DNA of 64,000 nt from Hydrolagus affinis (Eukaryota), in assembly GCA_012026655.1 (NCBI GenBank), contig JAAILG010000796.1, positions 1 through 64,000 of the forward strand, read 5' to 3'. Numbering within the stretch: position 1 is the first letter of the stretch; each line of letters begins with the position of its first letter. Position numbers and translations under genes: made by a program. Shown here in pieces: positions 6,398-62,529 of the stretch. The notes under the pieces were generated by a model that was not told where the DNA came from, did not search any database, and worked only from the letters and a program-made list of their open reading frames with translations.

Positions 6398-6626
6398 AAA
6401 AACAGAGGTCGCTGGAAACACTCAGCAGGTCAGGCAGCATCTATGGAGAAAGGAAAGTGAGTCCACGTTTCAGGTCCACTCCCCTTCGTGTGTATAGTTC
6501 TGAAATGTTGACTCACTTTCCTTTCTCCACATCCTTTCTCCAGATGCTGCCTGACTTGTTGAATGTTCCCAGTGACTTCTGTTTTTTGTTTCAGATTTCC
6601 AGCATCTGCAGTATCTTGCATTTTGT
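6398..6626. mobile_element. Palindromic Penelope-like element terminal repeat (inverted pLTR pair)
   Basis: Arms 6398-6473 and 6500-6586 are imperfect reverse complements; ends in ccagcatctgcagta. Resembles the common shark Penelope-type repeat; a second copy lies at 49711. Confidence 0.65.
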
Positions 6627-21444: not shown

Positions 21445-21505
21445 TTTTCTTGATTGAATATTTCTTCATTTATGCTTTAAATCAAGAAATATTCAATCAA
21501 GAAAA
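21445..21505. repeat. Perfect 22-bp inverted repeat (hairpin)
   Basis: ttttcttgattgaatatttctt (21445-21466) pairs with aagaaatattcaatcaagaaaa (21484-21505). Confidence 0.9.
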
Positions 21506-22000
21506 TTTGTTATGTGAGCTGACCGAAAAGGTTGGCCACCACTGTTGTACTGAGCTCAAGAGAAAAAATTCTGTGAAGCGCTTTGAGCCGTTTTGACAAT
21601 GTAATAAGGTGTTGTATCAAATGTAAGGGTTTTGTTATTTTGAGAATAATAATTATCCATACATTTGATATATACTGTAGTAGTGCTTTTCACATTTTCT
21701 CAAATATACTGTAAAATTAACTGATTGCATATTTTGTGGGCGAAGCGTGACAGCCAATTGCACACAACAGTGTCCCACAAACAATCGTGGATTGAGTGAC
21801 CAAATTATTATTATTTTTTTCAAGTGAAGTCCTGTGGAACACAGTCGCATACAGTATTGATGAACCACCTGATTGATAAACAGCACGCTGTACTGTTTGC
21901 TGGATGGCGCGCTGGAAGTCGAGCCATCCAGTAAACAGTACAGCGTGCATCCGTCACTCTCATCCACAACAAGAAGGTGAAGATGTTGGAAGTGTTCCAC

Positions 22001-22323
22001 AGTGGGGAGCGATTGAAATCTGGGTCATGGTTGTTTCTCAAAGGCACCAGGTCCATAAAATGAAGGGATAACGTTTCTGAACCATTCCAAGTCAGTATTA
22101 CTGCCTGTCGATCAGCTACAGTTTGCTTTTAGTTGTTGAGAAGATTGTGGTATAATACATTCTAAATTATCCCTAAACTGCATGCAGCAGCTGCAATACC
22201 ATATTATCCATATTATCCAGGTGTTAATATTTGCTTAATGTGCAATGAAAATCAATTTTTTTTTGCTAATTTCAGCTTTGACCAGATTTTCTCTGCTCTG
22301 GTACCATGAATCAAATACCCATC
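22001..22323 (+). repeat. Donor segment of a local inverted duplication (copy at 23112-23426)
   Basis: Reverse complement of 23112-23426, with about four substitutions and an 8-nt indel (catattatc duplicated in the donor). Confidence 0.95.
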
Positions 22324-22702
22324 TTTTTCTCTTAATAAATGTACCAGCAATCGCAAATAATTGTTTTGGACATCATAGACCTTTTCTAAATGTGAGCAAA
22401 TTTTATGCTTTAAAGAACTTGATCTATTGCCATTTCTACGTTTTTAAAAAAACTGATTCAAACCTGATTTAAGTGCTTTGAGGCATCTAGAAGATGTAAA
22501 AAGCACAATATCAATTGCAAGGATTATTATTATTTACTTCACACTTGGCTTGTTAGGGAGATCTATAAAATACGTCACAGTATTCCACAGTACTTCACTT
22601 GACAATAATTGTCCTTGCATTTGACTTAACTACCTTATCACATTGTCAAAACATCTCAAAGTGCTTCACAGAATCATAGTTGTGCAGGTCTTCACCTAAG
22701 TA

Positions 22703-23738
22703 CAGTAGAAGCCCATTTATCTGGCACCTGCGGGACCTAGCCAATGCTGGTTAAAGCGCCTGCCGGATATTCGGGCGGCCCGCAGCCGAAAACCCACTAT
22801 AAAAAAATTAAAGTTCTTTTAACACACACCATACACACCAGACTAGGTAATAACAGATAATAACAGAATATTATATTGGTACTTATTGTTAAAACTACTC
22901 TCTTGCGCTTCTCACCTTCACTGGTTGAGGTTTACAATCCAGCGATTCTTTTTTAAATGGAGCCAAGCTGGTGAAAAAAATGGTAGCGCGATTTTAAAGT
23001 CGCTCGACTTTACAAGCGAGCCGAATCCCTAGACTCTACTAGCGGCAAACCAAAATACTGCACTTGCACGACAGTGTGAGTTATCGGCTTGCCGCTAGTA
23101 TGACTTTAAAGGATGGGTATTTGATTCATGGTACCAGAGCAGAGAAAATCTGGTCAAAGCTGAAATTAGCAAAACAAAATTGATTTTCATTGCACATTAA
23201 GCAAATATTAACACCTGGGATAATATGGTATTGCAGCTGCTGCATGCAGATTAGGGATAATTTAGAATGTATTATACCACAATCTTCTCAACAACTAAAA
23301 GCAAACTGTAGCTGATCGACAGGCAGTAATACTGATTTGGAATGGTTCAGAAACATTATCCCTTCATTTTATGGACCTGGTGCCTTTGAGAAACAACCAT
23401 GACCCAGATTTCAATCGCTCCCCACTTTAAAGTCATACTCTCTCTGTTTTTTTCACCCACTCCATTTTAAAAAGAATCGCTAGACTATAAACCTCAACCG
23501 CAGCATCAAGGCTTCAAGCGCAGCATCTACCAGCAAAGGTAAAAAGCGCAAGAGAGTAGTTTTAACAATAAGTACCAATACAATATTCCGTTATTATGTT
23601 ATTATTTATGCATTTACAAATGCTTCACTGCTATTGTTCCGGATAAGTTCCGGTTTATCGAATGGGGACTTTTTTTTTGGCGTGCCGGTTATACAGAAGT
23701 GCCGGTGCATCGAATCACAGATAAACGGGCATCTACTG
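22703..23738. mobile_element. pogo/Tigger-like foldback MITE carrying captured flanking DNA
   Basis: TA at 22701-22702 and 23739-23740. TIRs cagtagaagcccatttatctg / cagataaacgggcatctactg (19/21). Internal inverted arms 22867-22910/23544-23587 and 22923-22962/23460-23499. Confidence 0.9.
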
Positions 23739-23887
23739 TACTTACATCACTTGACCTACCTCCATGTGGAGGTGCTGCAGTGAATTAATTTCATGCCAGA
23801 TACAGTGGAACTCTGCATCTGGCATGAAATTTATCAGAGCCTCTGTTTAACTCCCATTTAAACTGCATACGTCTACTTAACAATAAA

Positions 23888-45194: not shown

Positions 45195-46622
45195 GTGGGT
45201 ATGAATCCCCTGCTTTCACTGTTTGTGACTGAAGTGGTGCTTTGCTCGGGGATTCCTAGGGGATTTCCTCTCCAAACTTACATCCCCAAAGAATTTATCA
45301 TGAATTGGCTTTTCACCCCACTGTCCATGGGATGTGTTTGGCGCTAATTGACTTTTGCGTTTGCCTTCCAGAACAATATTGACTTGGTTTCTAACTGATC
45401 TCATTCTGTGAGACGTTGAGAGTAAAGTTCTTTGAGATGTTTCTTTGTAGGACGTCCTCCCGACGTGAAAGCTGTGGTTAGAATCATTGCTCCAAACTGC
45501 AGCCTGGTGTCCCTGAATTCTCAAATCCAGATATTTTCTTTTTCATGTAAAGTGAACCAAATTGTGTTAGAGTTTATCTGTCTCTTTGTCTGTAATTGGA
45601 AAATGCTTTGGGTAATAGATTCCTTTCTGTAATGCTGGGCTTTAGCTTAACTAAAAGCTATTTAGTTAAAATTTAGACTATTTAGGCCTGTCAGCTATAG
45701 CATTGTTGCTGAGCATTCAGCTTTCAGACCTCCACCAATAATAAACTGGGATCAATACTTGTACCAAGACAGTGGAATAAGAGGCTGTGGTTGCGAGTTG
45801 TAAAGGATAGTTTCAGGACAGATGACAGGAAACATTTCTTCACTGGCGGGAGTGCATTGCATTGTTGGAGGTGCCGTCTTTCTGATCAAACATTAAACCG
45901 AGTTGCTGTCTGATTGATCAGGCGGATAGTTTGATAGTTTTTCCCAGTGTTGTGACAATCCACTGTCAAAATCAGTTAATTGCTTCATGGTAGTATGGGG
46001 CCATTTGGGATCATCCGAGGTGCTCTCCCCTACACTGCTTCTACAAAGCGTTTTAAATGTGTTTCATCCACAAAATATATAGTCAATTCACTTTACAATA
46101 TATTTTGTGAAGCTCTTTGAGAGATCTTGAAGACGTGATAAGGCACTATATCAAATGCAAGATTTATTATTATTATTCTTGTTATTATCATTCTGAAAAG
46201 AAACTGAATCCTTTCTTTTGTGCAAGAGAAAGTGTTTGCTGTATTATTGAAGTTCATCGATAAGTTATAAGTATAGGATTTGGTTTCTTGGCAACAAATC
46301 TGAGAGCAGTCAGCTATTGCACAGCATAACAAATGGGACTTTGCTGTGCAGTTACAGGTGGTAGAAGAGTTGATTCTTGCTCTGTGTTTTTTTGAATTAA
46401 CATTCTCTCTGCACGTGATGGTATTTGTTGGTTGAATAGTCAGTAAAAACCAAACAACAGCATCTACTTATTTCCCCCAATCCACTTGTCACTTTATTGG
46501 CTTATTTCCAGTTGACTCGATGACTTTTGAGTATCCTGGATTGAGTTTTCACACCTTGGTTGGTGTGAGTTCACTGTGTTGGCCCAGGTTGGAGTGTGAC
46601 ACAATGATCATGTTGTATTGTA

Positions 46623-46980
46623 CAGTAAAACCTCGATAAGACCACTCACCTCCTGGATTTTGCCAGTATTTAGAAACCTACCTAGAAATGGCTGGGGAAG
46701 CTTCGCCCATACACCATGTGTGCTGGGCATTTGGCTCAGTGAGTTTTATAATCCATCAGGATGTACATGATAAGCAACTACAAGCAGCTGTCCCAAACTT
46801 CAGGAGATTTGCAGGAAATCAGAAAAAATTTAATACTGTTATATTTTGAAATCTTAATACTGTAATAATAATAATCCTTGCATTTGATAGAGCGTGTTTC
46901 ACATCTTATCGATATCTCAAACATTGCCAGTTTTAGGGAGTTGCCAGCTATCAGAATGTCAGATTATCGAAATTTTACTG
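46623..46980. mobile_element. pogo/Tigger-like MITE
   Basis: TA at 46621-46622 and 46981-46982; TIRs cagtaaaacctcgataa / ttatcgaaattttactg (15/17); contains a SINE tail fragment at 46863-46921. Confidence 0.8.
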
Positions 46981-49710
46981 TATGTTGAGTTGTTTGATGC
47001 CTGACCAGTGCTTTATTTGGATAGTGTGGTGATTGTGTTGCACTACCTCTATAAATACAGAAACTATTTACCGGCTCCCCGCATTCAACAAATCACTTCT
47101 TGTACACTATTATTTTTATTATTATTATTCTCCCACAAATATACAGTAAATGTTCCTACTTTCCTTCCCCCAACCACGACCCCTTCCCCTTGCTCTGGTC
47201 TCTACGTCTTTTCCCCCCTTCCCTCTTTTCTTCTCCCTCCCCTGACTCCTCCCTCCCTGCTCTGGTCCCTGCCTTGGGACGTTGTTGTATTCTGTGAAGC
47301 GCTTTGAGATGTCGATAAGATGTGAAAAGCGCTATAAAAATGTAAGGATTATTATTATTAGTAGTATTATATTTGCGACCGTGACTGTAACAGCCAATGT
47401 ACCAGGCTGTTAATGAGGTTATTGTGTACATCATGATGGATTATAAAACTCACTGAGCCAAATGCCCAGTCCATTATGCCTTACAGCAAAGCTTTCCTTG
47501 AATGCAGAGGCTAGTCAGCATAAAGTACAGCATATTGTGTCACAATTGAACCACCCGGGCGCACCTAATTATGTCGTCGAGACATGTCAAAGCACTTCAC
47601 AGCAAATACTGTAAAGTGATGTGTATTTTGTTGAGCAATAATGGAGCAAAGAAGAGCTATAGTGGGACAATCTAACAATGGGGTGGATGAGACGACAACG
47701 CATTTCAACTGGACCCCACTCTGGGTTGAGGAAGGACATTGGCTTTTCTTGTGAAAAAGTGGGGAGTGGTTGTTTGTGGGACATTGCTGTGTGCAAATTT
47801 CCTGCTGCTTTCATCCACAAAACACCATGCAGTGTATCCCGTGAATCACTTTGGGTTGTTTCGATGGCATAAGGTACTATATTTAAAAACAAGGATTATA
47901 TTTCATTATTATAGAATTAACACATAGCAGCAACAACCTGTGCTAATATAGTGCCCTAATCATGCCTCGGAGCGCTTCACAGGACAGTGGTCAGACACTG
48001 AGCAAAGGAAGTACATTCTTCATCCACTCCACAAGTAGGTTTCAGTGAAGAGAAAGGCAACACAATTGCTTTCAGACTGGGAAATACTATAGAAGCCAAG
48101 ACAAATGGGTTAATTTGACTCCCAATTGCTCCTGTGAGATTTAACTGGTGTGTGTGGACTTTCAGTTAGAACCAGAGCTGTCACAGAGTGTGGAGTCAGA
48201 AATTCAACATATGCCCTCATCGACTATAAGGTTTAGATCATTCAAGCCTTTGTTGCCCAGGCGGCCTTGTACAGTAGTTAATTCAGACAGACTAGTGAAA
48301 TTGTAAGCTTCTGCAAGCCTGGAATGACGTTTCCTCCTCTGGAATGCTTCATGCTATAGATTAATGGTTTAAACAGCTGATCTGCAGTCTTGCTGACTCA
48401 GCCTACAGTTTGAAGGGGGAAAACAGCTCAATGATATCTCAAAAATTGCTGCCAATATCTAGCCCTCAGTATAATGCAGCAATTATTAAATTGATCATGG
48501 TGTCCAGACCACTGGATCAGTTCCTGGGTTTTATTTAGAGGAGATTGTTTTTGTTCAGCCAGGTGTTTGGCACATGCAGAAACCCATCACTGAAGGTATC
48601 CAAAGCAAACTAAGATAAGAGTTCCACCATGTCACCTACACATGGAAATTCCCATATGTGCTGAAGGTTGGGCGAACTGCTCGGAAGGACCATTAATTCT
48701 GATCTGTGCTGTCACAGTTTGTAGCCCAGTGAATTTCCAGCAATTTTTGTTCTCCCAGCGTTTGACATACGTAAAGAAAATGAGGGATGATAACGATCCT
48801 TCCATTTGATGCAGCATCTATCATGTTGAAATGTCTCAAAAGCACTGTCTATAATAGTGACTGCATTGCAGGCAAATGGATGTTTGTGTAAGCTATTTAT
48901 AGAAACTGCAAATCACCATCTGAAGTTGTATCAGATCTGTATTTTTGAATTGAGGCAAATAGATTTTCCAGTGATTTACACCTTATTGTGACCCTGCTGT
49001 TACGAGCATTTATTATTGTTATATAAATCATTATGAAGTGTATTAGGGGTGAGGGATGAGAGTGAATCTCCGAGTAAATTTCTGAGGTTTGAAATAAAGA
49101 TTGGTTACAAATGTGATATTATCTTTGAGGCCAAAGGTTTTTTCCTTTCTTTCCCCTGCCACTATGCATTTTACTTTAGACTTTTTTCCTCCCCTTATCC
49201 CTGTTTTCCTATTGCAGTGAAGTGACACTGTTTCTCTGACCACACATGGCAACTGCCTTCCATTACCTTGTTCACATGGCTACATGTGAGACAGGATCTG
49301 AATGGGTTTAAGGATATTTAACTAAAGGAAGCCATAAAGTTGGGCTCAGTTGCCATGCTCCAGTATGTTTCTCAATGGTCAGAGAGGGGAAGGAGCTTGG
49401 AGAGGGATAGGGTGAAATGAATAGAGAGAGGGGAATGGAGTCAGAGGTTTGGGTGTGTGATGATTATGGTGAGAAAATGTTGGCAGGATTGGAGCAATAT
49501 CAACAACAACAAAAATTGGACTCATAGTGCCCGTTAACGAATGGAGGATGTCCCAGAGGATAGAATAGAGGAAGAGTAGTTTGTAGAGGTGACCACCAGA
49601 ACATTCTTGTTGTTCTTTCTTGAGCAAGTATGAGGAAATCTGGAATCACGTAGCCCAAATATATTGCCACTTTTTTTTTTTTTAAAAAAGCCATGCAAGC
49701 CATCGTCAGA

Positions 49711-49845: not shown

Positions 49846-51405
49846 GGATGTTGGCGGGGAGCAGTTAACAGGGACAAACAGAAAAGAGGTGGGAAAGAAA
49901 GAAAGACAAAAGGAAAACAATATATATTTCTTTGCATACAAACCATTGTGCTTTTCTACTAATAATTGTCAAATGCTGTGACTTTTTTTGTAATCGAGCA
50001 TTATGCAGCATGAACCTTCAACTCTCCGATCCTGTGGTGGGAGATCTCTGAGCTGTACCAAATGGGCAACTCATTGGTCCAATGTTCTTGCTGAAATAAA
50101 AAACTGCCAGACTTTTACTTTTATATGATCTCATTTGTAGCCAAAATTAAATTGGCTACAAATGAGGAACATTCTGTATTGTATTGCTGTGATTTACATT
50201 ACTAAAGATTTTTCTTGAAAAATTAGAGCAGATATAATAACATTGGGCTGAATTGTCCTCATCCATGTTCTGAATTTGTTTATTTGTATTTATGTGCAAA
50301 ATCATGGAGAGAAAACACCAGTTTCTGAAGTGAGCCTCAAAGTAAAGGAGGAGAGTTCAGAGCCAGTCATCTCCTCCTCTTCCCTCCGCCCAAGCAAAGT
50401 CTAGGCTCTGCGAATGCAGTCCCTCTGAAATCACTAAGAGCATACTTTAGTCAGTGGGCTGCTCAGATTCTTGGTTACGTGATGTTCTTTTCTGAACTTC
50501 AAGCAGTGATTTTATGGCCAATGAATGTTTTGTCAATTGGTTTTGGAGTGGGACTCAAACTGAACAAAGCGATTCAGTGTAACTGATTATTTCTCAAAGC
50601 CAATCCCCAGCCTTCGCGATGAAGTACAGTTCATGAGAAAATGCCCTTCCAGGGCTCCAAATGCCTACCAACGCGATCTGATCTGACACTAAGCAATTAC
50701 AAATCGGGGCCTTGTCCCTGTGTGTCAAACTGACTTGGTTGGTCGCATTCAAATGTCATGTAGACTTTGAGCTCATTGGCTACTGTCGAAGGTGCTATAT
50801 TTTGGATGACACATTAACCCAAGCTCCTCTATCTGTTCAGGTGGACTTTAAAGATTCAGTGGCACTACTTCAAAATAGACTTCAATTACAAACAGATATT
50901 ACACCTTATTTGGAGGCATTTCTACAGTGTTCAGAATATGTACAGATATTTATTTTTCAAATGCGAGATATAAATAATTATAGTGTGGGTGGGGAACGAA
51001 CAAATTCCAAACTTGCTTATAAAATACTGACAGGCATGTTAAGCTACAATCTTCACACTGAACACTGTGTTGGCATTCAGATATGATGGGATGCATGGGT
51101 TGAGATTGCAATCGAGACATTTTGATTGAATGAAATTTGTGTGGTTGGTGCTCATCATCAGTAACTATTTTTTGCCGTAGTAACAACTGGTGGCGATGGA
51201 GATTTTAAATTGAAAAATAAATTGCTTTGGATGGGTCTTGAAATAGACTAATGGTATGCTCATTGATGTGCTCCCTGGGGGGGCATTCTTTGTTAATGTC
51301 ATTGGAGTGTATCTGCTTCAGTTCTTTATCAAATAAAGAGATATAGAGGCCCTCGTAGACTCCCCGTTATTCAGGATTTTGTTTTTGTATATTATCTTGG
51401 GAGAA

Positions 51406-62045: not shown

Positions 62046-62529
62046 TTAAAGACCCCATGACATGATTCTAAAGAGAATTGTCCTGACCCATAATTCTTCA
62101 GATAAAATCAATCATTCACTTAAATGGCTGTTTATAGGACATTGTTGGGCATAACCTTGCTGTCACATTCACCTGCAACACACTGCGTTTCACAGTAAAT
62201 CCTGTGGACATTTTGAGATATTGCAAGAATGTGTTAAACTGCTTCATCAAATTCAAGGCTTTGTGTTAGTTTATTCTTGCATCAAAACTGTGGTGTGTCT
62301 AACAAATTATGCATTGCGGGGCAATGCATAATTTCTGAACTCAGACTGGTCGTATCTATTTTCGATGCAGAGGGTACACCAATCCATGTCTGGCAGAAAC
62401 ACTTCCTCAAGGTGTTGGGTTTCAATAGGAATTATGAGGCTCGGCTCCTTATTTATGCTCGAGCAGATTAGTTTGCATCAATTTCCAGCTGTTTGTTCCG
62501 AAACTGAGCATAGGATGTAGTGCAATACA

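What the first reader, a model, noticed from the sequence alone, without database searches (positions are those of the whole stretch)
46623..47469. Second Tigger-like MITE also contains an inverted copy of nearby flank
Seen: 46723-46773 (ctgggcatttggctcagtgagttttataatccatcaggatgtacatgataa), inside the MITE, is the reverse complement of 47419-47469, about 440 bp beyond the element, at 48/51 identity. Two of the mismatches are a tg/ca pair consistent with decay of one CpG. Both complete pogo/Tigger-type elements I found therefore share the same signature: a local donor in inverted orientation. Inference: local capture may be a recurrent, possibly undescribed property of these elements in this lineage (abortive gap repair or template switching).
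Basis: partly seen in the sequence, partly recalled or inferred. Interest (0 to 1): 0.72.

Follow-up and report, generated by a model that had tools for sequence, protein, structure and literature searches.

The report
Repair patch inside a dead transposon
A small non-coding jumping element carries a reversed 51-base copy of DNA from about 440 bases away in place of part of its own middle, most likely a patch laid down when a break was repaired after the element had settled; this is an already described kind of accident and it is no more frequent in these elements than in the DNA around them.

Summary
In detail: 46723-46773 matches 47419-47469 inverted at 48/51, the donor has no other match in the genome, and contigs of two other organisms bridge the junctions. 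The element (46623-46980, TA-flanked) belongs to a ~335-bp MITE family; here the 51-mer replaces ~70 bp of the family consensus, with a 3-bp microhomology at the left junction. The generalisation fails. Among 311 other copies of the two families, 0 carry an inverted local copy and 1 carries a direct one. Flanking DNA holds such local copies at 15.5 per Mb (11 inverted, 13 direct), predicting 2.5 inside the MITEs (rate ratio 0.4, 95% CI 0.01-2.5). Inserts are closer to their donors than co-eval capture predicts (P=4e-5 and 2e-7 for two; 0.056 for this one). This is a single-copy Pack-TIR-type gap-filling scar (Tan et al. 2021, PMC8277862), post-insertion, single-copy, no sign of function. The scan has noted the same kind of event in other genomes. 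Open detail: an inverted SINE-tail pair is nested almost co-centrically inside the 51-bp arms and may have guided the fold-back or come from the same event.

The parts
46621..46622 (.). TA target-site duplication, left
   Evidence: sequence
46623..46980 (+). Non-coding MITE of a ~335-bp family (here F2) with CAGTA-type TIRs at 46623-46639 and 46964-46980
   Evidence: TIR pair; 3021 first-look candidates in the genome; alignment of 24 copies
46723..46773 (-). Templated insertion: inverted copy of 47419-47469 that replaces about 70 bp (consensus ~127-197) of the MITE; first 3 bases (CTG) shared by MITE and donor; 0-1 bp shared at the right junction
46774..46853 (+). MITE consensus resumes (conserved inner block)
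46854..46862 (+). 9-bp repeat of the MITE's own 46830-46838, at the SINE junction
   Evidence: (family D5)
46863..46921 (-). 59-bp 3' fragment of the genome's abundant SINE, inserted in the MITE; inverted relative to the SINE tail at 47288-47360 (52/59 identical)
   Evidence: another copy (L003) has a SINE at the same site and orientation
46924..46980 (+). MITE right end with TIR
46981..46982 (.). TA target-site duplication, right
   Evidence: sequence
47288..47369 (+). Neighbouring SINE 3' tail; forms an inverted pair with 46855-46921, centred 16 bp from the centre of the 51-bp pair
47419..47469 (+). Donor of the 51-mer, single-copy flank
22701..23742 (+). Comparison element (family F1, ~740 bp consensus) with a ~312-bp insert at about 23114-23425, an inverted copy of 22001-22327, bounded by a duplicated 8-9 bp piece of a short palindrome

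Best explanation
The 51-mer is an inverted copy of single-copy DNA 438 bp downstream that replaces about 70 bp of this one MITE copy, most likely written in by microhomology-guided template switching while a break inside the already inserted element was being repaired. Shown: copy-specific replacement, unique local donor, 3-bp microhomology, single copy, no enrichment over flanks. Inferred route: the break removed the MITE middle; the resected right end folded back on its own strand, copied about 50 nt of the downstream flank, and its new end was joined to the left end through the CTG/CAG microhomology (polymerase-theta-type or MMBIR-type synthesis; the enzyme is not identifiable from sequence). 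The transposase is not needed; the MITE is simply the recognisable background against which the scar shows. The product is a miniature single-copy Pack-TIR and is likely without function.
For: Replacement of consensus ~127-197 by the 51-mer, TIRs and TA intact. CTG shared at the left junction. Donor and insert the only 2 matches. 0 of 311 other elements with an inverted local copy, 1 of 311 with a direct one (L180: 209 bp at 93%, replacing about 70 bp, microhomology at both ends). 24 such local copies in 1.548 Mb of non-MITE DNA, 11 inverted and 13 direct, median length 57 bp, median gap 949 bp; expected in 160 kb of MITE 2.48, seen 1; inverted expected 1.14, seen 0. Insert-donor non-CpG differences are fewer than twice the element-to-consensus divergence predicts: 1 vs 4.6 (P=0.056), 4 vs 19.1 (P=4e-5, window element 1), 7 vs 31 (P=2e-7, L180). 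Tan et al. 2021 report the same features for animal single-copy Pack-TIRs: cis donors mostly under 5 kb, median 2-bp microhomology, internal breakpoints, capture after the element went inactive.
Against: In the window the only two unique-type local copies within 3.5 kb both lie in MITEs, which make up about 2% of it; that is improbable under a uniform rate, but it is the coincidence that selected the finding. The confidence interval allows up to 2.5-fold enrichment (3.9-fold for inverted). The dating test for this particular insert is only borderline (P=0.056) and divergence from a consensus overstates age if subfamilies exist; local gene conversion could also lower insert-donor divergence. 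The window copy and L180 lose nearly the same ~70-bp segment, which hints at a fragile part of F2. No orthologous copy without the insert was seen.
Confidence: 0.85

Rival explanations
1. Transposition-linked capture: the element was excised or nicked by its transposase and abortive gap repair from the sister chromatid switched to the nearby flank, so local capture is a recurrent property of these pogo/Tigger-type families.
For: Both complete elements in the window carry an inverted local copy. L180 is a third interior case, and L149 has a local direct copy replacing the last few bases of a TIR. The model is established for P elements (as summarised in Tan et al.).
Against: No enrichment: 1 of 311 against 2.5 expected; 0 inverted. 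Inserts look younger than their elements. Breakpoints are internal and the loss is small (0-70 bp). No captured version has spread.
Confidence: 0.08
2. Family-specific fragile site: F2 breaks preferentially in its GC-rich middle (or at retrotransposon-endonuclease target sites within it), so F2 collects patches at a modestly raised rate although the transposase is not involved.
For: Window copy and L180 both replace about consensus 127/136-197/207; deletions of 15 bp or more peak near consensus 110-130 (18 of 106 copies at position 121); L014 has a SINE at the same CTG junction. Tan et al. found breakpoints skewed to the interior.
Against: Only 1 interior case in 182 unselected F2 copies, about what the background rate gives for 68 kb; the deletion peak lies left of the replaced segment.
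Confidence: 0.12
3. Sub-model for this copy: the SINE fragment and the 51-mer come from one complex event that switched twice between the MITE and the folded-back flank (47469 to 47419, then 47369 to 47303), or a pre-existing inverted SINE pair formed the stem that placed the broken end next to the donor.
For: The two inverted pairs are collinear and their centres differ by 16 bp; random placements give this in 2.8% (post hoc). Both SINE tails share a subtype found in 51 of 414 tails. Multi-template events made up 33 of 103 and 26 of 99 human germline events in Osia et al..
Against: The neighbour is only an average match within its subtype (20 of 51 as good or better; 24 of 414 overall) and shares only a CpG change with the fragment. 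The SINE pair differs at 6 substitutions plus a gap in 59 against 1 non-CpG in 49 (Fisher P=0.12). L003 has an independent SINE at the same site; 7 of 182 F2 copies hold a SINE tail. Only 1 of 14 other inverted events has a co-centric pair.
Confidence: 0.3
4. Assembly artefact or chance match.
For: This assembly does contain 100% identical inverted duplications (L223; L231/L232).
Against: Arms differ at 3 sites with a CpG-decay pattern; E=4e-17; junctions bridged by contigs from organisms A and B.
Confidence: 0.01

Closest known systems
Single-copy Pack-TIRs of animals formed by transposition-independent gap filling (Tan et al. 2021, PMC8277862; read: abstract, introduction, Results sections 6-8, Discussion, Methods section 14, one supplement row)
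   Same: Non-TE sequence inside a TIR element with both ends intact; unique donor within 5 kb; short microhomology; small internal loss; single copy; capture later than insertion; TcMariner hosts are common (115 of 370).
   Different: The 51-bp insert is below their 100-bp detection limit. A word search of the main text found no treatment of donor orientation, and I saw no comparison with non-TE background there. They list 0 cases for elephant shark (242 annotated TIR TEs).
Templated insertions by SD-MMEJ/TMEJ and MMBIR (review PMC7407515, passages read; Osia et al. 2021 PMC8421209, passages read)
   Same: Deletion plus insertion copied from nearby DNA, direct or inverted, with 1-4 bp microhomology; accumulate as germline variants.
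   Different: Those passages describe templates mostly within about 100 bp and short synthesis; here the template is about 650 bp from the break and 50 nt were copied.
Pack-MULEs and multicopy Pack-TIRs
   Same: Host DNA carried between TIRs.
   Different: Those are amplified by transposition and have mostly distant donors; this insert is single-copy beside its donor.

Membership tests
Single-copy Pack-TIR (Tan et al. 2021) | Non-TE sequence flanked by both ends of one TIR element | tested here: met
Single-copy Pack-TIR (Tan et al. 2021) | Unique parental copy at 90% identity or more | tested here: met
   94%; only 2 places in G000
Single-copy Pack-TIR (Tan et al. 2021) | Internal sequence longer than 100 bp (their operational cut-off) | tested here: not met
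   51 bp; the window's first element (about 312 bp) and L180 (209 bp) pass this cut-off
Single-copy Pack-TIR (Tan et al. 2021) | Cis donor within a few kb and microhomology at a breakpoint | tested here: met
   438 bp from the element; CTG at the left junction, 0-1 bp at the right; 3 bp alone is not rare by chance
Single-copy Pack-TIR (Tan et al. 2021) | Orthologous element without the insert in an outgroup | tested here: inconclusive
   Organisms A and B already carry the insert; no more distant genome is held. Divergence test borderline for this insert
Multicopy Pack-TIR / Pack-MULE | Captured form re-transposed to other sites | tested here: not met
pogo/Tigger-type MITE (Tc1/mariner superfamily) | TA target-site duplication and short TIRs | tested here: met
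   that CAGT-starting TIRs with TA mark pogo/Tigger elements is recalled, not from a call
pogo/Tigger-type MITE (Tc1/mariner superfamily) | Ends shared with a DDE_1 (PF03184) transposase element | tested here: inconclusive
   20 of 150 DDE_1 matches examined: F2 has only a 25-bp TIR match (88%) beside L339; F1's first 192 bp lie 3' of the DDE_1 match in L343 (87%) and L351 (71%). No autonomous parent of F2 found
Polymerase-theta-mediated end joining scar | Dependence on POLQ | not testable with these tools
   sequence signature only

The most novel reading that the evidence does not exclude
Inverted SINE pairs, abundant in this genome, act as fold-back guides that steer break repair to templates hundreds of bases away, and the GC-rich middle of the F2 MITE is a fragile site that collects such patches at a few times the background rate.
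Probability: 0.1. Interest if true: 0.45.

Novelty: new member of a known kind. Interest (0 to 1): 0.15.

Why it matters
As it stands it matters little: one neutral repair scar of a described class. The useful by-product is the control: local templated copies occur at roughly 15 per Mb of ordinary DNA in this genome, in both orientations, so TIR elements may be where such patches are noticed rather than where they are made. If MITEs were strongly enriched, or inverted SINE pairs were shown to guide the repair, that would identify a rule for where germline templated insertions arise.

Tried and rejected
Family-wide capture: rejected. 51-mer as part of the consensus or of a common repeat: rejected. 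The insert of element 1 as a hAT element with an 8-bp TSD: rejected, it has no TIRs and only 2 places in the genome. SINE fragment as a clear second local capture: not shown (rank 14 of 366). Co-centric inverted repeats as a general guide: 1 of 14 other inverted events, null about 1-5% each, no support. First automatic classification of non-consensus segments was swamped by a second family sharing F1 ends and by over-long spans; its output was cut and I replaced it with the mask-based count. Laying contigs on element 1's insert: runs X1, X12 and X7 gave only donor-like contigs with non-MITE flanks and X13 one insert-like contig at depth 2.2 that bridges no junction; contigs do not show absence, so I draw no conclusion on its age from this. 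Run X7 has no cover on the donor of the 51-mer, X5 and X11 were uninformative. Pfam scan of 17 of the 36 stop-to-stop frames of 110 aa or more in the window: no family, so the genic context stays unknown. A hAT MITE control was not run; flanking DNA served as the control. Six paper searches were run; papers other than the three cited were seen as listings only.

Full report
Observation. The 51 bases at 46723-46773 are the reverse complement of 47419-47469 at 48/51, and identity ends sharply on both sides. Two mismatches are one decayed CpG; 1 of 49 other sites differs. The arms are 645 nt apart. A search of the genome with the donor and its flanks returned only these two places. The host is a TA-flanked element with 17-bp TIRs, 46623-46980. 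Contigs from public runs bridge the left junction in organism B (X7, 46649-46758) and the right junction in organism A (X12, 46729-46878), and X12 also covers the donor, so the structure is real and older than the split of these organisms. Earlier notes of the scan call this genome a chimaera; I did not test that.

Anatomy. The element belongs to a family (F2) with 3021 first-look candidates and a 338-bp consensus including both TA. Against that consensus the window copy has lost about 70 bp (positions ~127-197) and carries the 51-mer in their place. The left junction shares CTG between element and donor, the right junction 0-1 base. The first element of the window (22701-23742) belongs to another family (F1, 742-bp consensus, 5388 candidates); its ~312-bp insert is an inverted copy of unique 22001-22327, placed in a short palindrome with 8-9 bp duplicated, and none of the 29 other copies fetched has it. 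For F1 the first 192 bp occur next to DDE_1 transposase matches in 2 of 20 loci examined in a consistent arrangement; for F2 only a 25-bp TIR match was found (20 of 150 matches examined). The label 'Tigger-like' for F2 therefore rests on TA, TIR type (recalled) and that weak link.

Test of the generalisation. I sampled copies by exact TIR patterns, which do not look at the interior: 90 of 166 matches to the F2 left end, 90 regions from 1158 matches to the F1 end, and 90 of 215 matches to the F2 right end, with 1.5 or 3.5 kb of flank, and added the similarity-selected loci. After dropping 6 window-derived loci, 10 duplicates and the mirrored half of one palindromic locus, 318 loci and 1,707,906 bases remained. 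They hold 311 TIR-to-TIR elements (182 F2, 129 with F1-type ends; 262 from pattern-selected loci; 159,969 bp). Repeats were masked by all-against-all BLAST (39% masked). Local copies were self-matches with 25 or more unmasked bases in both arms: 37 raw, 25 after requiring a gap of 150 bp or more and 85% identity and merging pieces of one event. One lies inside a MITE (L180, direct orientation); 24 lie outside (11 inverted, 13 direct; 15.5 per Mb; median 57 bp). Expected inside MITEs 2.48, observed 1, rate ratio 0.4 (95% CI 0.01-2.47); inverted expected 1.14, observed 0 (upper bound 3.86-fold); per copy, inverted capture is below 1% (95% bound). One of the outside cases, L149, abuts a TIR and replaces its last bases; counting it as inside did not give enrichment in the first, smaller sample (2 seen, 2.0 expected). 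A more sensitive search of all 20 unmasked segments of 18 bp or more inside elements found no further convincing flank donor. Against my reading: in the window itself the only two such events are both in MITEs, and L180 and the window copy lose nearly the same segment.

Timing. If capture had happened at insertion, insert and donor should differ by about twice the element's non-CpG distance from its consensus. Observed versus expected: 1 vs 4.6 for this insert (P=0.056), 4 vs 19.1 for element 1 (P=4e-5), 7 vs 31 for L180 (P=2e-7). Two inserts are clearly younger than their elements; this one probably is. None has spread.

Mechanism (inferred). A break in the MITE middle, resection, then the right end's 3' tail folding back on its own strand would copy the downstream flank in exactly the inverted sense seen, and the new end would join the left end through CTG/CAG. 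Element 1 fits the mirror case (upstream donor, 3-4 bp microhomologies), and L180 fits annealing across the break (direct copy). This is the synthesis-dependent microhomology pattern described in PMC7407515 (passages) and for germline templated insertions in PMC8421209 (passages), although those passages deal mostly with closer templates. The enzyme cannot be named from sequence. The SINE pair nested inside the arms is centred only 16 bp from the 51-bp pair (2.8% of random placements, post hoc). It could have served as a stem, or be a second tract of the same event; but the neighbour is an average match within its subtype (20 of 51), L003 has an independent SINE at the same site, 7 of 182 F2 copies hold SINE tails, and only 1 of 14 other inverted events has such a pair. 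I leave this open, leaning to an independent SINE insertion.

Known kind. Tan et al. 2021 (PMC8277862; abstract, introduction, Results sections 6-8, Discussion, Methods section 14 and one supplement row read) found 370 Pack-TIRs in 100 animal genomes, nearly all single-copy, 57% within 15 kb of the donor and most of those within 5 kb, 68% with microhomology (median 2 bp), and 91 of 97 primate cases later than the insertion; they ascribe them to transposition-independent gap filling. This finding matches in all tested features except their 100-bp cut-off. I found that paper by my own search; earlier notes of the scan reached the same paper for similar cases in other genomes.

Verdict. Real, ordinary and already described; the proposed lineage- or family-specific inverted capture is not supported. 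Interest 0.15.

Noticed in passing
L180:3836-4044 (donor L180:2656-2859): Second F2 copy with a local patch: 209 bp, 93% identical, direct orientation, replacing about 70 bp of nearly the same consensus segment; meets the published Pack-TIR size and identity cut-offs.
   Followed up: yes
L149:3603-3721 (donor L149:2006-2128): A 120-bp direct local copy abuts an F2 element and replaces the last few bases of its TIR and the TA.
   Followed up: partly
L223 (G000:C693:38634-48633) and L231/L232 (G000:C773): Kilobase-long 100% identical inverted or duplicated stretches within single contigs, around F1-type elements; probably assembly artefacts.
   Followed up: no
L292:3267-3622, L297:3945-4115, L309:4898-5269: Unmasked inserts of 170-370 bp inside MITEs with no donor in the fetched flanks; candidates for Pack-TIRs with distant donors or for low-copy repeats.
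   Followed up: no
L088, L103, L108, L110, L113, L119, L211, L218, L228, L237: A second MITE family shares the F1 ends but has a different interior, present in about 17-20 of the sampled loci.
   Followed up: no
window 21445-21505, 21883-21948, 23784-23834, 46069-46109, 50130-50166, 62304-62334, 6398-6586: Several short near-palindromes (82-90%; 71% for the last), possibly snap-back duplications or small fold-back elements.
   Followed up: no
L335, L336, L338, L344, L346, L348, L350 and others: DDE_1 (pogo/Tigger-type) matches in open frames of 500-700 aa without stops and without F1/F2 ends nearby; domesticated genes or intact transposases.
   Followed up: no
window 46853 and L003, L014: SINE insertions recur at the same short sites in F2 (after the AT-rich block; at the CTG junction), suggesting target preference.
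   Followed up: partly
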